NCBI RefSeq assembly: GCF_002113885.1
Contig: NW_018404981.1
Coordinates: 90,136-154,135 of the forward strand
Direction of reading: 5' to 3'
DNA: 64,000 nt
Source: Mizuhopecten yessoensis
Lineage: Eukaryota
The position numbers were made by a program. This document shows positions 21,001 through 27,000 of this stretch, piece after piece (within the stretch, counting starts at the first letter, position 1; each line of letters begins with the position of its first letter).

Positions 21001-24000
21001 CCTTGCTAAAGGTTCAACAAGCCCCCGCAATAAAATTCCATGATGACTTTAATCATCTAACTCATGGTTAAAACCCCATTAAACATTAAACATTGAAATT
21101 TCCATGATTTAGATATATATTTAATGATATGTACCGAAGTGCCCTAGTTTATTAGAAGGCAATACTTGTGGTTAATATCTTCATTACAAAGCCTCCTCAA
21201 CATTACCCTCTTACCGGGGTTTTTTTGTTTGGTTTTTTTATTATAATATAACATAAGCAAGCAGTACACAAATTACCAATGTTAAGTTCATTTATTATTC
21301 ATCCCCAACACATATTCCCTCGTAAAAGCTTTTTGCGGTTACTGGCCGGACACAAAGTTGGTTTGTACCATGCAAAACCACAAAAAACATGGTTAAATTT
21401 CCTGGTGATATTTAAAATGTACAAAAAAAGTAAACCAATGGCCATGTTACCTTGATCAATACATGAAATATATATGAAGTGTCCTTTCGTGATAGTAAGC
21501 GTTGTTACAAATGCTTATAAACATTATAGTATTTTAGTAGCCCTAACTATATCACTGACACTAGACTTATATTCTCATCTATCCTTAGTGAGTTGCACGC
21601 AGAATATTGTGCGCTATTTTGTGACAGAGTTTTGTGATCTACGTGATATATTTGTGAACTATATTACAGAGTATTGTGACCTACATTTGTACGTGACAAA
21701 GAATTGTGAGCTTTTGACAAAGCAGGCAGAGGTGTATTACGTACAGGTAGTGCCGAGGTGATGGCGCGAGCCCTATCGATTTTTTTGCGGAGTTCTGCTA
21801 TGTTGTTGCGGAGGTTTGTTGCCTCCTTCTGCACTGACACACAGGGCTGGACATCCGTACTGCCAGTAATCTCCTTCATCTGTTGCATGTTGGATCGGAC
21901 AGTGTCCACTGAAAGGTGAAATATGATATAATTTGAGAGATACATTTCTAATTCTTAATACCCGACATGTGTTGTAATGAATCGTCCTCAAATTTTAATT
22001 TCGCTTGAAAGCTTGTCGCAAAAATGAAAATTTTAACATAGATATCCAATTTTATGATAGTTTCTGTTTATGCACTCTTGCAAGCTAGAAGGATGTAAAC
22101 TCATACCTATATATATGTAATGAAATCAAACCTTTAGCTAAAAGATCTGTCATCATTTCAACGTGTTGGCGTGACGTTCCCTGTCCGTTTTGACTAGATT
22201 CCGCCTTCTTTAGTTCAGTCATAGCTATCGCCTCTGCCTTTTCGATCCTATTTCTGATGGTTACACCATGCTGGTTGATTTTAGCGCTTATTTTGGCTAT
22301 CCTTGTTTGTGTGGTCTCAATTTGTGTCTTGGTGTCCATCCAAAATGTTTCAACTTCAGTGGCATTGTTAACGAAATCGCTGATAACGGCTACGTTTCCT
22401 TTCACAGTGTCCCATCTCTCTTCAATTACTTGATTAAGAACAAAATTGATCCTTATTAGGCTATATTTCAATTTTTCAGATGATTACATGTTAAAACAGA
22501 ATAATTCCATTTATTAACACAAGCAACCTCACTGACACAAATATTTAAATGGTACCCTAACTTGGGTTATTTATTATGATTTGATTGTATGGAAAAGTAA
22601 GATAAACATTTACGTACGCAAGCTCACAAAATTGGATATAACACCTGGAAACTTGATGAGATCTTACATGTCTGATATCTGGTTTAGCTAAAACTAGCCA
22701 TTTCTGTGTACCAAATGTAGGATGAGTATATTATGTTGTACGTATTCGCCATCATGACTGTACATAATTGTACATTGTATAACTAGTAAATGACACATAT
22801 AAATATTCTACGCACCAGTCAAGAACAGTGACGTCAAACAATTTTTTTTTACGTCACACCTATGAATTTCTAAACGTGGTAAATGGTTCCAAATCAACAA
22901 AGACAAAAACTTAAGAAGAAACTAATGTGAGTAACGTATCAAAATTGGTATATAAGTATCATTTTTCCTCCTTTGTTGATTATGACATTTTGAGGAAAAC
23001 AGTAATTTGCTATACTCACGATCATGTCTGCGACTGATTGGGATAGACTTCGCCATCAAGTCATCAGACTTATCTCGCTCCAGTTCTGCTCTCTTCTGCA
23101 ACGTGTCTCCTTCAAAATAATTTTGATTTACACATCCTTTAAAGTAGACATTTAGTGTTTTGTTAGCATATATAACAACATGTATAGTAGGAAAGCGATA
23201 GAAGTTTAAGGAGCATTTAAAGCGTCGAGCGTCAAAGCGTGGTGACAGAGTAAAATGTAATAGGAGGTTCATTTCGGAGCTGATAATTTCTTTTCGTTTT
23301 CTTTTTTTCTTTCGTATTTATATATTTATACATGTATGTTATGAATACATTTGTAACCTAACTATTGCATTAACAATACTGGAACAAAAGAAGGCAGACC
23401 GGGGGACTGCTTAGTTTGTAGTTGTGAACACACGAGTGAAATTACTGCGTCAACCGTAGTTGTTTCAACCCACATTTTACTGTATGGTTCAGGTATCATT
23501 CAAATGAGCAAATGGAATAATTACTTGAGATTCTTATTCGTATCCCTTGTGACTGAAAAAGGAGGCATAGTTCGCGCACGTGTTATTTTAACAAGATTAG
23601 GGACTAATTGTTTCTAGCTTTGTAATGATGCTTTCTGGTGTTATTATAGCTCCATGGGAATCAAACGTACAAGCAGAAGTGACTTTAGCTTCATTCTAAA
23701 AGGCTGAAAAATAGCAAAACCGAAAACCAAAAACATGGTTTAAAACTTAGATGCATTTTGTTTAAAAGAAAAATTAATTAAATGAAATATAAAATAGGAT
23801 GTCCGTTCTCTGTGTGCCGTAATGGGGTCAAAGTGACCTCAGACAATACATTATTCGAGGGCAAGGACAGAACATCAAAAAGATTTATTGCTTTAGTTTA
23901 TAGGCTTAATGTTTAGGTAAATCTAAGTGTAGCTATAAGTTGATATAACAACAACAGATTACTTACGGAATGAGTTGTGGTAAGCGCCAGCATTAGGGTC

Positions 24001-27000
24001 ATCCCCTCCAAGCCACCACCAACCGGATTCCTCTTTTTCCTTATCTTCAATTACGAAGTCAGAGCCTTCGTTACCGCTCCCCATTTCTACTGTTGTGCCG
24101 ATCTCCGTCGTAGTGACCGATTTCTCAGTGGTCAGTTGGGGAACTGTAGTGGGTATACTCGCCAGAGTCGTAGGGGAGCTTGTTGTTGTAGTCGTGGGGG
24201 AGGGAGTAGTAATTGGAGATGGTGTCGACTTGGTCGGGAGAACGGTTGTGATTAGCTTGTCAGAAGTTGAATAAAACATTCCATTTCCACTGAAAACTAT
24301 ATCGTCGTCGTCAGATGTTGTTTCAAAAAAGTCATCTGTTGATTCGGCCATTGACATCTCTGTTGTTGTTGGGGTTGAAGATCGACGAGAAGTTGTTGCT
24401 GAGGTTGTTACTGGTAAAACTGTTGTTGTCGTGGTTGTTGTTGATGGGCGCGTAGTCGATGGAACTGGCGTCGTTGTTTTAGTACGGGGCGTCGATGTAA
24501 CTTTTGTTGTTGGGCGGGGCGTCGTTGGAACTTGCGTTGTTGGGCGGGGCGTCGTTGGAACTTTCGTTGTTGGGCGGGTCGTCGTTGGAACTTGCGTTGT
24601 TGGGCGGGGCGGCGTCGGAACTGGCGTTGTCGTTGTTGTTGTTGGGCGGGTCGTTGTCGGAACTGGCCTTGATGTTGTTAGGCGGGAAGTCGACGGAACT
24701 GGCGTTGTTGGGCGGGGCGTCGTCGGAACTTGTGTCGTTATTTTAGGGCGGGGCGTCGACGGCGCTGAAGTTGATGGATGCGCAGTCGTCGGAACAGGTG
24801 TTGTTGTAGGGCGGGGCGTCGACGGCACAGTTGTTGATGTTTTTATTTTCATTAGCGGCGTCGTAGATTTGCCGAGAGGCGGAGACGAGGGGGAAAGTCG
24901 TGGTTTTGGTGTTGTCACACGCGTGGGCATAAGATCCTCTCCACCACTTCCTAATATGGTGATGTACTGTTCACAGTCAATGACCATATCCTCGTCGTCT
25001 CCCCCACCTGATCCAGTGACTAGGTCCTCACATCGCTCACGAAGTATGTTCTCATCTGCCAGTAACAGGCGTAGTTCGTCCATCCGTCTGTCGAGTTTCT
25101 GACAATAAATCACTGATAGTTAGTATGTTTATCATTCATTTTTGATAGACGATTTTCAAATATTGTTTCACTATCGACTGGATAGCATTGGTTTTCGTTT
25201 TGTTTTGTTTGTTTTGGGTTTTTTGGCATCAGTCCATTAATAATCTACCCAAATGATTAATAATACTCAGGTTTTTTTGTAATGAGATTATTTAACAACA
25301 AAACTATCGTCTTTGTAAGAAGACCAACTGTAATAACGGCATAGCAATATATGTTCTGGTTACCGAAAAGCAATCAAGATAAATTAAAACTGTTACAATT
25401 ATCCTATAGAGAATGCCACTGGTATAATAATTATTATAAAACCTTCCACTTCCACGTCATTATTTACTAGTGTAGTCATCCAGAAATTCAGTGTCTTTCT
25501 TTGAGTTCCCTAAACAAACGGAATATGAACCTTCAAGACTGACGTCACAATTAAAACAATAGATGGGACGTCATAGACTCCAAGATACAGTCGTTGGACA
25601 AATGGCGTTGTTGAAAGAAATAGCTACTGTTATTTTATCAAATAATGTCTCGGTCTTGAATTCGTTTTATAGAAAATTCGTGGAGAACGGAGATCAGTAA
25701 AAGGCCTACTGAAAAAGGCATACTCACGGCAAAATAAAACAAAACAAAACAAAAACGAGAAAAAACAAACCGTGACAATATCAGCCAGTCTCCCCACAAT
25801 AGCCAACAATTGCAAACGCACGTTGCTCCCACTATTTCGTCGGACATCAATAGACTTCTTTGCCTTTTGCAGTACAGGAATAATCGTCCTGGAAATTACA
25901 TCATCAAATTGACAATACAATGTACAACCAAACACCTACTGGGAGTGTGTAGCGTAATATATATTCGGATACTAAAGACTACTAGGGCCCGGTTCATGTC
26001 CTAGTTAGCGTTACCTCAAATTAATGAAAGTTTCTTAAAGAAATATTTCAGGAGACGCGATTTGTTTTCTTTTTTCTTGCATTTCTATTCATCAGATGAG
26101 TGTATGAAATCCTTAGTAACGAGTAAGCTTGTATTTAATTATCTGGGCTCGCACGAAAAAGCAATTTATTTGTGTAAAGTCAAACAGCGACTTCAACTTA
26201 CATGTAACATCCAACAAAATAAAGATTTTAAAAAGGCATATTTAAATGAACGAAGAAGGTAAATTTACTTTTTATTTAATTAGATAAAAGCTTGAAAGCA
26301 CAATAACAGTTGATAATTGACAGTTTCCAGTATTAAAAAAATGAAAGATTAAGTTTTGTTTATTTAAATTTTGCAGATCAAATAAAGAATCAGAATATGA
26401 TTAAGTTACATGATTCTTCAAACAGAATAGAGATAAACACGAAAATGAAAACAGCTTATCATAAAGTGGTTTACTGTGTATTTTTGTAACAACATCCACA
26501 AGGATCTATATTATATTAAGAATGTCATAAATCCTGACATAGACGAACCTTGTTTATTCTGCAAACCTTTATAAAACAGACTTTTAACTAGGTATTGCTA
26601 TATACCAATCGGGAATCGTCGGCACTTTCCGTAAACGAGAAAATATTTACGTTTACGGAGAGTGCCGACGGTACCTGATTGGCTATATGCATAATTATAC
26701 AAAATATTTTGAAAATTTCTTTTCCGAATTAAAACTGTGTTTTGTGAGATGTTCGATGCAGACACTTTATATATTTCTTCTCACCTAGCCAACGACTCCA
26801 CTGTCCGACCTAACTGTCGAGCATGTTGATAGCTTTTAGTGGTGAAGTCTTCAATTTCATTCATATTGGTAATGGGTGCCTCTGTTTGGAAAACGATCGT
26901 GTCGCCTGGTGGGCGTCTCTCGATAAAAGCGTTACGTAATTCTATGTTTCTCTGAAAGAAACGCCAAGAAAGATTTACGAACCACAAAAAAGTCTTAGAG

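What the first reader, a model, noticed from the sequence alone, without database searches (positions are those of the whole stretch)
23967..25098. Mucin/proteoglycan cassette inserted in the middle of the laminin coiled coil
Seen: one 1132-nt exon interrupts helical exons on both sides. It carries about 200 aa of Thr/Pro repeats bracketed by Ser-Gly motifs in acidic context (TGSGGGDDED, LGSGGED, DDDDIVFSGNG, MGSGNEGSD, EESG), has Cys near both borders (RCEDL, IDCEQ; RCVNQ in the next exon) and a WWWLGG motif. Established: acidic-flanked Ser-Gly is the xylosyltransferase/GAG attachment consensus, and PTS repeats are O-glycosylated. The laminin beta chain has a short Cys-bounded knob in its coil, but alpha chains are not known to me to carry such an insert. 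Inference: a laminin-proteoglycan hybrid with a looped-out, possibly disulfide-closed bottle-brush able to bind Ca2+ and water.
Basis: partly seen in the sequence, partly recalled or inferred. Interest (0 to 1): 0.75.

Follow-up and report, generated by a model that had tools for sequence, protein, structure and literature searches.

The report
Mucin-like hinge in scallop laminin-like protein
One large scallop exon encodes a sugar-bearing, flexible spacer that breaks the helical rod of a short laminin-alpha-like matrix protein, and the break with its two cysteines and acidic Ser-Gly motifs is a conserved hallmark of a little-studied protein family rather than a one-off insertion.

Summary
On the minus strand, window 25098..23967 is one 1132-nt exon with canonical splice sites. 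It encodes two Thr/Pro/Ser blocks (190 and 60 aa), acidic Ser-Gly motifs, two Cys and a WWW motif. The window is scallop, not human: the exon is 100% identical to the NCBI protein 'Laminin-like protein epi-1 [Mizuhopecten yessoensis]' (P0001, 1578 aa).

The host is not a canonical laminin alpha chain. It has no LN, LE, L4 or Laminin_I match (0 of 11 relatives) and only three LG domains. Its last ~570 residues do match the laminin alpha 'E8' unit (coil end plus LG1-3) by sequence (5mc9_A, E 8.7e-42) and by fold.

A profile search found eight more distant relatives of 1307-1815 aa. In all 11 proteins two invariant Cys and a variable hinge (44-422 aa) sit at one fixed point, between a 318-362-aa helical segment and a 185-192-aa one. 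Acidic Ser-Gly motifs are about 13-fold enriched there. The PTS filling is lineage-specific (4 of 11).

Glycosylation, secretion and partner chains remain inferred. Verdict: new variant of a known kind; interest 0.5.

The parts
23967..25098 (-). Focal exon (P0001 aa 470-847): end of helical segment N, Cys loop, PTS-1, acidic island, PTS-2, acidic/aromatic tail, restart of helix
   Evidence: sequence, splice sites, translation; 100% identity, 100% coverage to P0001; tblastn block 470-847
25033..25098 (-). Last 22 residues of helical segment N (KLDRRMDELRLLLADENILRER)
   Evidence: Conserved across 11 family members. AF2 helix runs to aa 497 (low confidence)
24973..25032 (-). Cys492..Cys511 loop (CEDLVTGSGGGDDEDMVIDC) with an acidic GSG
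   Evidence: Both Cys invariant in 11 of 11. GSG present in the loop in 8 of 11
24931..24972 (-). EQYITILGSGGEDL: second acidic GSG site just after Cys511
   Evidence: G519/S520 are at least 90% conserved. GSG within about 30 residues after Cys2 in 9 of 11
24361..24930 (-). PTS block 1 (aa 526-715, 190 aa; T 38%, P 23%, S 10%, no D/E), built partly of 10-aa / 30-nt tandem units
   Evidence: composition; TRF arrays at 24485-24630, 24583-24679, 24638-24825
24271..24360 (-). Acidic island (aa 716-745) with SDDDDIVFSGNG
   Evidence: 'SDD.DI.FSG' is conserved in the 3 pectinids
24091..24270 (-). PTS block 2 (aa 746-805, 60 aa; T 38%, S 15%, P 13%)
23967..24090 (-). Acidic tail (MGSGNEGSDF, EESG), aromatic motif GWWWLGGDDPN, and first helical residues (AGAYHNSF) of segment C
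   Evidence: AF2 shows no regular structure with pLDDT about 28-38 up to aa 838, and helix from A839
6212..33247 (-). Whole gene as in public model P0001 (24 tblastn blocks; block bounds approximate). Blocks 1-8 give the basic N-terminus and helical segment N; block 9 is the focal exon; blocks 10-12 give helical segment C; blocks 13-24 give LG1-3
21742..23109 (-). Exons for helical segment C (aa 848-1031, about 185 aa), including the conserved P997-C998 break and the final 31-residue helix before LG1
6212..20906 (-). Exons for three LG-type beta-sandwich domains (aa about 1033-1578), laminin alpha LG1-3-like
23110..23136 (-).
   Evidence: sequence; all three pectinid proteins lack these residues
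33248..33445 (-). Open frame continuing upstream of the annotated Met. It encodes C-x3-C and an H/R-rich stretch that aligns with the Y. balloti protein, so the 5' end of the model is probably incomplete

Best explanation
The exon encodes the hinge module of a laminin-alpha-long-arm-like matrix protein. Its relatives carry signal peptides, so it is probably secreted.

The protein reads, in order:
- a probable signal peptide, missing from this model;
- a short Cys motif and a basic stretch;
- a ~335-aa heptad-bearing helical segment;
- a two-Cys acidic loop;
- a disordered spacer;
- an aromatic/acidic motif;
- a ~185-aa helical segment;
- three LG domains.

The part after the hinge is the counterpart of the laminin E8 unit, that is the C-terminal part of the coil plus LG1-3. 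The hinge position, the two Cys and the (E)GSG-acidic motifs are ancestral to a family of at least 11 proteins, at least partly molluscan. What fills the hinge is free to vary. In scallops and one other member it was filled by tandem expansion of Thr/Pro-rich 10-residue units.

Inferred mechanism:
- In the Golgi the PTS blocks become densely O-glycosylated and stiff, and the unstructured acidic Ser-Gly sites are xylosylated and carry glycosaminoglycan.
- The rod is therefore split by a hydrated, polyanionic, extended tether. This tether holds the LG1-3 cell- or matrix-binding head away from the N-terminal rod and lets it swivel. It would be an exaggerated version of the natural hinge of the laminin long arm.
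- The two border Cys either close a small 18-residue loop that presents the first GSG, or staple partner chains at the end of the N-terminal coil.

Shown: exon structure, composition, repeats, conservation, fixed position, and laminin-E8 likeness. Inferred: secretion of the scallop protein, glycosylation, oligomeric state and function.
For: Exon and motifs. Identity to P0001 and two pectinid orthologues that keep both borders while PTS length differs (hinge 337, 384 and 422 aa).

Family: a profile of segment N found 10 proteins at E<=0.001 in 1.84 billion. These are one pectinid, eight more distant full-length relatives of 1307-1815 aa, and one 58-aa fragment.

Fixed architecture:
- segment N 318-362 aa;
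- Cys-Cys 12-27 aa;
- hinge 44-422 aa;
- segment C 185-192 aa in 11 of 11;
- LG region 535-553 aa in 10 of 11.

C492 and C511 are invariant in 11 of 11.

Acidic-context SG: 38 motifs in 2,821 hinge residues against 15 in 14,464 residues elsewhere.

Disorder and helices: AF2 gives pLDDT about 28-38 with no regular structure up to aa 838, then helices, then three beta-sandwiches. Heptad z is 5.1 and 3.7 for the two flanks, and -2.2 to 1.4 for the seven other regions.

Laminin E8 likeness:
- phmmer finds 5mc9_A laminin alpha-1 at E 1.7e-14, colinear from the coil end through LG1-LG2;
- the family profile gives E 8.7e-42;
- the Foldseek top 5 are all laminin E8-type or LG1-3 structures;
- the ESM Atlas neighbours are laminin alpha-3-like and alpha-2-like clusters.

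Literature (passages read):
[quoted passage not shown] Here a conserved Pro997 starts a 31-residue final helix.
- Laminin-332 has a hinge 34.5 nm from the coil end, at the E8 cut site (bioRxiv 10.64898/2026.02.08.704728).
- Xylosyltransferases act on Ser-Gly in unstructured regions, and acidic residues and a nearby Trp matter (PMC10570366 passages; PMC13405426 abstract).

Secretion: signal-peptide-like N-termini in 7 of 11 family members.
Against: - No signal peptide is seen in the M. yessoensis, P. maximus or P0005 models, and the Y. balloti N-terminus is an odd repeat. Secretion of the scallop protein is therefore inferred from relatives and from the LG domains.
- No transcript or protein data could be consulted, so inclusion of the exon rests on three public gene models and on conservation. 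How those models were supported was not seen.
- No O-glycosylation or GAG predictor was available. Occupancy is inferred from composition and motif alone.
- One quoted site (EESG-WWW) is not conserved even among scallops.
- P0009 has no SG in its 44-aa hinge, only one in the Cys loop, and P0007 and P0008 have none in the loop.
- Segment N is predicted as 8 helices of 13-44 residues with two Pro-rich breaks of 16-18 residues, at low confidence (mean pLDDT 57, pTM 0.21). It may be a segmented bundle rather than a continuous coiled coil.
- Segment N has no detectable similarity to laminin coils: Laminin_I 0 of 11, no usable Atlas hit.
- 185-192 residues correspond to about 27-28 nm, shorter than the 34.5 nm hinge distance in laminin-332. 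This uses my own conversion at about 0.148 nm per residue, a recalled value.
Confidence: 0.6

Rival explanations
1. It is an alpha-type laminin chain that still assembles with laminin beta and gamma chains. The hinge then bulges out of a heterotrimeric coil as a glycosylated side loop, which is the reader's 'looped-out bottle-brush' but without disulphide closure.
For: - The coil end plus LG1-3 is laminin-alpha-like by sequence and fold.
- Weak Laminin_II matches just before LG1 in 3 of 11.
- The very constant length of segment C (185-192 aa) suggests a register-constrained partner.
- A conserved Pro-Cys lies about 31 residues before LG1, where alpha1 has its Pro kink.
- Vertebrate alpha3A and alpha4 show that short-armed alpha chains exist (PMC6744579).
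Against: - No LE repeat at all and no Laminin_I match (0 of 11).
- Segment N is unlike laminin coils and is predicted as segmented.
- Only three LG domains are present.
- No partner chain was examined, because no scallop beta/gamma sequences were available to the tools.
- The three Laminin_II matches are all below Pfam's cut-off.
Confidence: 0.2
2. The hinge is only an unmodified, intrinsically disordered acidic/PTS linker, an entropic spacer. The Ser-Gly motifs are simply flexible-linker residues, or are sites for a secretory-pathway kinase rather than for xylosyltransferase.
For: - The filling varies freely: T+S+P 0.21-0.63 and length 44-422 aa.
- Some members have few or no SG.
- Several motifs read S-G-E or S-G-D, which also fits the S-x-E type of kinase motif (recalled, not tested).
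Against: - The 13-fold enrichment of acidic SG is specific to the loop and hinge.
- The recurrent form hydrophobic-E-G-S-G-acidic is more specific than a generic linker. It matches what is described for GAG attachment: Ser-Gly in unstructured regions with acidic residues C-terminal and Trp nearby.
- In P0001 the motifs read SGG, SGN and SGW, not S-x-E.
Confidence: 0.12
3. Annotation artefact: two neighbouring genes (a helical protein and an LG protein), or an intronic low-complexity repeat, have been fused into one model through a fortuitously open PTS frame.
For: - Low-complexity DNA here is open in several frames, including a 223-aa ORF on the + strand.
- The public models lack a signal peptide.
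Against: - The same order of parts recurs in 11 proteins, including eight unnamed library relatives only 20-32% identical to P0001.
- Strongly conserved sequence lies at BOTH ends of the same uninterrupted exon: about 56 aa at the 5' end and about 40 aa at the 3' end.
- The splice sites are canonical.
- The conserved segment C has no start of its own.
Confidence: 0.03

Closest known systems
Laminin alpha chains, C-terminal 'E8' unit (alpha1 in 5mc9, alpha5 in 5xau/7cec, alpha2 LG1-3 in 2wjs)
   Same: - The end of the coil runs colinearly into LG1 and LG2, with LG3 matched by fold. These are the best sequence hit (E 8.7e-42 with the family profile) and the best fold hits.
- A Pro-initiated final helix of about 30 residues precedes LG1.
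   Different: - No LN, LE or L4 short arm and no LG4-5.
- The N-terminal helical segment has no detectable laminin similarity.
- The coil is broken by a 44-422-aa non-helical hinge.
Truncated vertebrate alpha chains (alpha3A, alpha4)
   Same: They are short-armed alpha chains lacking LN (PMC6744579). An Atlas cluster 'Laminin subunit alpha-4' is among the neighbours at score 0.86.
   Different: Those keep EGF_laminin repeats (100% of that Atlas cluster). They also have five LG domains per PMC10300086 (search-listing abstract only). This family has none of the former and three of the latter.
Hinge of the laminin long arm (laminin-332; E8 elastase site)
   Same: Both are a localised flexible break in the C-terminal part of the coil that separates an E8-type unit from the rest.
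   Different: - There the hinge is a few unwound residues around prolines, 34.5 nm from the coil end.
- Here it is tens to hundreds of disordered residues, about 27-28 nm (185-192 aa) from the coil end.
- Equivalence of position is not shown.
L-beta 'knob' of laminin beta chains
   Same: Both are a Cys-containing interruption of the heptad repeats in a laminin-type coil (PMC6744579 figure legend).
   Different: - The knob is described as cysteine-rich and compact; here there are only two Cys followed by a long disordered segment.
- No sequence match was found: the exon gives 0 Pfam families at E<=1.
- It lies in a beta chain and, as I recall, nearer the N-terminal end of the coil.
Basement-membrane proteoglycans with LG domains (agrin, perlecan)
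   Same: They combine LG domains with Ser-Gly GAG sites in acidic, unstructured linkers. Agrin also has Ser/Thr-rich segments (recalled).
   Different: Agrin is only a weak hit (E 0.16), and perlecan and agrin LG domains rank far below laminin alpha by fold. This family has no follistatin, EGF, SEA, LDLa or Ig modules and has long helical segments instead.
GAG-attachment sequons of betaglycan and SULF2
   Same: An acidic cluster, Ser-Gly and a Trp at about +2. Compare the scallop's EESGWWWLGGDD and P0012's EGSGWFDDDD with the descriptions.
   Different: This is motif resemblance only. The scallop ESGW site is not conserved in the two other scallops, and no modification data exist.

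Membership tests
Laminin alpha chain (canonical) | N-terminal short arm: LN domain, laminin-type EGF (LE) repeats, L4 domains | tested here: not met
   Pfam Laminin_N, EGF_laminin and Laminin_B: 0 of 11 family members at E<=1. P0001 is only 1578 aa
Laminin alpha chain (canonical) | About 600-aa heptad coiled coil recognisable as Laminin_I / Laminin_II | tested here: inconclusive
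   Heptad excess z 5.1 and 3.7 in the two helical segments. Laminin_I 0 of 11; Laminin_II 3 of 11, all below the curated cut-off and all just before LG1. Segment N gives no Atlas hit
Laminin alpha chain (canonical) | Coil end continuing into LG1-LG2-LG3 | tested here: met
   5mc9_A colinear match at E 1.7e-14 and 8.7e-42 with the family profile. Foldseek top 5 are laminin E8/LG1-3 structures
Laminin alpha chain (canonical) | Five LG domains (LG4-5 after a linker) | tested here: not met
   535-553 residues follow the coil in 10 of 11. AF2 shows three beta-sandwiches and the chain ends
Laminin alpha chain (canonical) | Heterotrimer with beta and gamma chains | not testable with these tools
   No scallop beta/gamma sequences and no complex prediction were available
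Proteoglycan core protein (xylosyltransferase substrate) | Ser-Gly in an unstructured, acidic context | tested here: met
   5 acidic SG sites in P0001's loop and hinge and none elsewhere. Family-wide, 38 in 2,821 aa against 15 in 14,464 aa. pLDDT is low around the sites that were modelled, the Cys-loop/first GSG and the 3' tail sites; the PTS core and acidic island were not modelled. Criteria from PMC10570366
Proteoglycan core protein (xylosyltransferase substrate) | Entry into the secretory pathway (signal peptide) | tested here: inconclusive
   A hydrophobic N-terminus (12-residue Kyte-Doolittle mean >= 2.29) is present in 7 of 11 relatives, but not in P0001, P0002 or P0005, and P0003 is ambiguous. 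The ORF stays open upstream of P0001's Met. No signal-peptide predictor was available
Proteoglycan core protein (xylosyltransferase substrate) | A glycosaminoglycan chain actually attached | not testable with these tools
   Needs glycoproteomics or enzyme-shift data on the native protein
Mucin-type PTS domain | Long Pro/Thr/Ser-rich tandem-repeat region | tested here: met
   aa 526-715 is T+P+S 71% with no acidic residues. 30-, 42- and 66-nt tandem arrays. Length varies between the 3 scallops
Mucin-type PTS domain | Dense O-GalNAc glycosylation | not testable with these tools
   No predictor or data available
Laminin beta L-beta knob | Compact cysteine-rich interruption of the heptads | tested here: not met
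   Only two Cys (C492, C511) and none within the hinge in 10 of 11. No Pfam or PDB match for the exon

The most novel reading that the evidence does not exclude
A previously undescribed, conserved family, at least molluscan and perhaps wider, of short-arm-less laminin-alpha paralogues. In it the natural hinge of the laminin long arm has been turned into a dedicated glycosaminoglycan/mucin attachment module: two invariant Cys, (E)GSG-acidic sequons and a free-length spacer. These would be 'E8-on-a-tether' proteoglycans that either join laminin beta/gamma chains to make a proteoglycan laminin or form their own disulphide-stapled oligomers.
Probability: 0.25. Interest if true: 0.7.

Novelty: new variant of a known kind. 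Interest (0 to 1): 0.5.

Why it matters
Laminin long arms are usually treated as continuous rods whose only notable interruptions are the beta-chain knob and short proline-linked kinks.

This finding shows a family that keeps the laminin E8-type head (coil end plus LG1-3). It has a strictly length-conserved distal coil of 185-192 aa and places a length-free, probably glycosylated hinge at one fixed point.

If the Ser-Gly sites carry GAG, this would be a laminin-related proteoglycan with no described counterpart that my six literature searches could find. It would also be a natural experiment on what a hinge in a laminin-type coil is for.

More practically, the public name 'Laminin-like protein epi-1' overstates what the protein is.

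Tried and rejected
- **Exon-by-exon Pfam scans.** 20 minus-strand ORF pieces were scanned. The result was almost empty: one sub-threshold Laminin_G hit (E 0.0027) and nothing for the focal exon. The gene could not be named this way.
- **NCBIfam on P0001.** Only chance-level hits; the library is prokaryote-oriented.
- **Word-based protein searches with P0001.** Residues 150-520 and 848-1578 found only the three scallop proteins. The wider family appeared only with the full HMMER profile search.
- **ESM Atlas on segment N, aa 151-491.** No usable hit.
- **AlphaFold2 of the N flank.** Mean pLDDT was 57.1 and pTM 0.21. I used it only for helix boundaries, not for packing or Cys geometry.
Rejected, because the 'RCVNQ' Cys lies in 27 nt that all three scallop proteins lack.
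- **Canonical laminin alpha.** Rejected on missing short arm and missing LG4-5.
- **Equivalence of the hinge with the L-beta knob.** Rejected (two Cys, no match).
- **Signal-peptide exon upstream of 33247.** I looked by eye. An ATG lies in another frame and the candidate splice sites are weak. I did not build a model and leave the 5' end unresolved.
- **Literature.** Six searches found no paper describing this family or a mucin/GAG hinge in a laminin-type coil. PMC7747718 (passages) concerns the LG domains of Pif/BMSP shell proteins and is unrelated. The library is not exhaustive. Fahey & Degnan's laminin-evolution paper, which I recalled, was not retrieved.
- **Not done.**
  - Genome contigs (bacteria and archaea only), search_dna_similar and the RNA tools were not used because they are irrelevant here.
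  - No N run was filled or looked up. The run at 14940-15208 falls between tblastn blocks and appears intronic.
- **Taxa.** The taxa of P0005-P0013 are unknown, since the library carries no names. The only hint is an Atlas cluster labelled Mollusca with the phylum known for 1 member. I did not try to trace their sources.

Full report
**What is there.** The finding's coordinates are right, but the gene is on the minus strand.
- Window 25098..23967 is one 1132-nt exon, preceded by ..ttattgtcAG and followed by GTAAGT.
- It is 377 codons plus one base, entered in phase 0, so skipping it would shift the frame.
- Thr, Pro and Ser make up 27%, 14% and 10% of the exon, against 8%, 4% and 8% in the rest of the protein. 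They are concentrated in two blocks, aa 526-715 and aa 746-805.
- Between and around the blocks lie acidic islands that carry the Ser-Gly motifs.
- The DNA of the first block contains 30-, 42- and 66-nt tandem arrays; the 30-nt array has 4.9 copies at 90% match. The PTS therefore grew by tandem duplication.

**Whose gene.** A protein search with the exon alone returned four hits:
- a 100% identical, fully covering match to the NCBI protein 'Laminin-like protein epi-1 [Mizuhopecten yessoensis]' (P0001, 1578 aa);
- Pecten maximus (P0002, 55% identity over the whole exon);
- Ylistrum balloti (P0003);
- an unrelated Ser-rich shrimp protein at E 7e-4.

The window is therefore scallop DNA, not human. 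tblastn of P0001 against the window gives 24 blocks from 33247 down to 6212, and the focal exon is block 9.

The spliced model was searched exon by exon and the joined step was left out. Later multi-exon queries used only the stored public protein.

**Is it a laminin alpha chain?** Only in part.
- Pfam finds just Laminin_G in P0001-P0003.
- Across 11 family members, Laminin_G_2 matches 11 of 11 and Laminin_II matches 3 of 11, all below the cut-off and all just before LG1. Laminin_N, EGF_laminin, Laminin_B and Laminin_I match 0 of 11.
- The best solved-structure match of P0001 is the alpha1 chain of the laminin-111 integrin-binding fragment (5mc9_A, E 1.7e-14). It aligns colinearly from the last turns of the coil through LG1 and LG2.
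- With the family profile that match rises to E 8.7e-42, ahead of neurexin.
- An AlphaFold2 model of aa 807-1578 (mean pLDDT 70.5) shows helices followed by three beta-sandwiches. Its five best Foldseek matches in the PDB are all laminin E8-type or LG1-3 structures.

[quoted passage not shown] There is no short arm and no LG4-5. The N-terminal helical segment resembles nothing known.

**The flanks are helical.** A crude a/d-position scan against 100 shuffles gives z 5.1 for aa 151-491 and z 3.7 for aa 848-1032. The seven other regions scored, including the insert and the LG region, give z between -2.2 and 1.4.
- AlphaFold2 puts the last N-side helix at aa 485-497, ending just after Cys492 (low confidence, pLDDT 57).
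- On the C side there is no structure up to aa 838 and helix starts at Ala839, directly after GGDDPN.
- Segment N is predicted as eight helices with two Pro-rich breaks, so it may not be one continuous rod.
- Segment C has one 86-residue helix, a break at the conserved Pro997-Cys998, and a final 31-residue helix into LG1. This recalls the Pro2095 kink and 'last eight turns' of alpha1. I could not check residue-level equivalence.

**The decisive result: it is a family feature.** A profile of segment N was searched against 1.84 billion representative proteins. It found 10 proteins at E<=0.001: one scallop, eight more distant full-length proteins of 1307-1815 aa (P0005-P0012) and a 58-aa fragment. 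Aligned with the scallops, all 11 share the same order of parts.

Lengths:

| Part | Length (aa) |
|---|---|
| Segment N | 318-362 |
| Cys-to-Cys | 12-27 |
| Hinge | 44-422 |
| Segment C | 185-192, in 11 of 11 |
| LG region | 535-553, in 10 of 11 |

- Cys492 and Cys511 are invariant.
- The hinge filling is PTS-rich (T+S+P >= 0.56) only in the three scallops and P0006. In the other seven it is acidic (D+E 0.18-0.28).
- Acidic-context Ser-Gly occurs 38 times in 2,821 loop-plus-hinge residues, against 15 times in 14,464 residues elsewhere. The typical form is hydrophobic-E-G-S-G-acidic.
- GSG lies inside the Cys loop in 8 of 11 and just after Cys2 in 9 of 11.
- Seven of the 11 start with a clear hydrophobic leader. 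The scallop models and P0005 do not.
- In M. yessoensis the frame stays open upstream of the annotated Met. It there encodes a C-x3-C plus basic stretch that fits the family pattern, so the 5' end is probably incomplete.
- An Atlas look-up places the nearest cluster in Mollusca (phylum known for one member), and the next neighbours are laminin alpha-3-like and alpha-2-like clusters.

**How it most likely works.**

Shown: a fixed break in a length-constrained helical rod, bordered by two invariant Cys and by unstructured acidic Ser-Gly motifs, with a freely variable filling.

Inferred:
- The protein is secreted.
- The PTS blocks are O-glycosylated into stiff, extended segments.
- The Ser-Gly sites are xylosylated and carry GAG.

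The last inference is reasonable on published criteria. [quoted passage not shown] A SULF2 sequon with an acidic cluster and ..FSGWGG drives chondroitin sulphate and works in Drosophila (PMC13405426, abstract). The scallop's EESGWWWLGGDD and DDDDIVFSGNG resemble these, although the first is not conserved in the other two scallops.

The result would be a hydrated polyanionic tether between the N-terminal rod and an E8-like head. Vertebrate laminin-332 has a small, proline-associated hinge 34.5 nm from the coil end, at the E8 cleavage site (bioRxiv 10.64898/2026.02.08.704728, passages). Here the break lies 185-192 residues from the coil end, about 27-28 nm by my conversion. That is the same region of the rod, but equivalence is not demonstrated.

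The two Cys could close an 18-residue loop that presents the first GSG, or link chains. Nothing here decides between those. Whether the chain pairs with laminin beta/gamma or with itself is also open.

**Verdict.**
It is a mucin/proteoglycan-type module in a laminin-type coil. However, the host is a short laminin-alpha-like family member rather than an alpha chain, the module is ancestral rather than inserted, and the disulphide-closed loop is not supported.
- Six literature searches found no description of this family. The library is incomplete and supplements were closed.
- I rate it a new variant of a known kind, interest 0.5.

Noticed in passing
window 50964-62669, minus strand: A DEG/ENaC-type channel gene lies upstream of the laminin-like gene. 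5 of 6 ORF pieces tested match Pfam ASC (PF00858), colinear over profile positions 32 to 454.
   Followed up: partly
window about 34213-34933, minus strand: Decayed Tc1/mariner-type transposase remnant (HTH_Tnp_Tc3_2, E 5.5e-5 for one piece). Its ORF pieces lie in more than one frame, so the reading frame is broken several times. It sits about 1 kb upstream of block 1 of the gene model.
   Followed up: partly
window 33248-33445, minus strand: The ORF stays open upstream of P0001's annotated Met. It encodes C-x3-C plus an H/R-rich stretch that aligns with the Y. balloti protein and fits the family pattern (leader, Cys motif, basic stretch). The public model's 5' end, and hence its lack of a signal peptide, is probably an annotation gap.
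   Followed up: partly
window 1069-1538, 14940-15208, 41614: N runs, left unfilled. The second lies between tblastn blocks 16 and 17 of the gene. It appears intronic, since P0001 aa 1167-1272 are accounted for, save residue 1210 at the block junction.
   Followed up: no
P0001 aa 1-157 (window 32777-33247), and the equivalent regions of P0003 and P0005-P0012: A strongly basic, His/Arg/Lys-rich low-complexity N-terminal region of very variable length precedes the helical part; 36-620 residues lie before the conserved 'RLE.R..P' start. In a protein with a polyanionic hinge this could be a self- or GAG-binding segment.
   Followed up: no
P0003 aa 1 to about 95: The Y. balloti model begins with about 12 copies of an 8-residue 'VLGSVDAV'-like repeat. 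This looks like a translated tandem repeat rather than a real leader.
   Followed up: no
window 15949-16278 (+) and 55087-55558 (-): Intronic or intergenic tandem repeats that create long spurious ORFs ('HLGHVIVT' units; 'YNIYTVQ' units).
   Followed up: no
P0001 aa 829-838 and aligned columns in A3: A conserved aromatic-Gly/acidic motif closes the hinge just before the helix restarts: GWWWLGGDDPN in the scallop, and forms like FGWFNDQP, FSFWNDAP and WFGEWSNDEP in distant members. Its role is unknown.
   Followed up: partly
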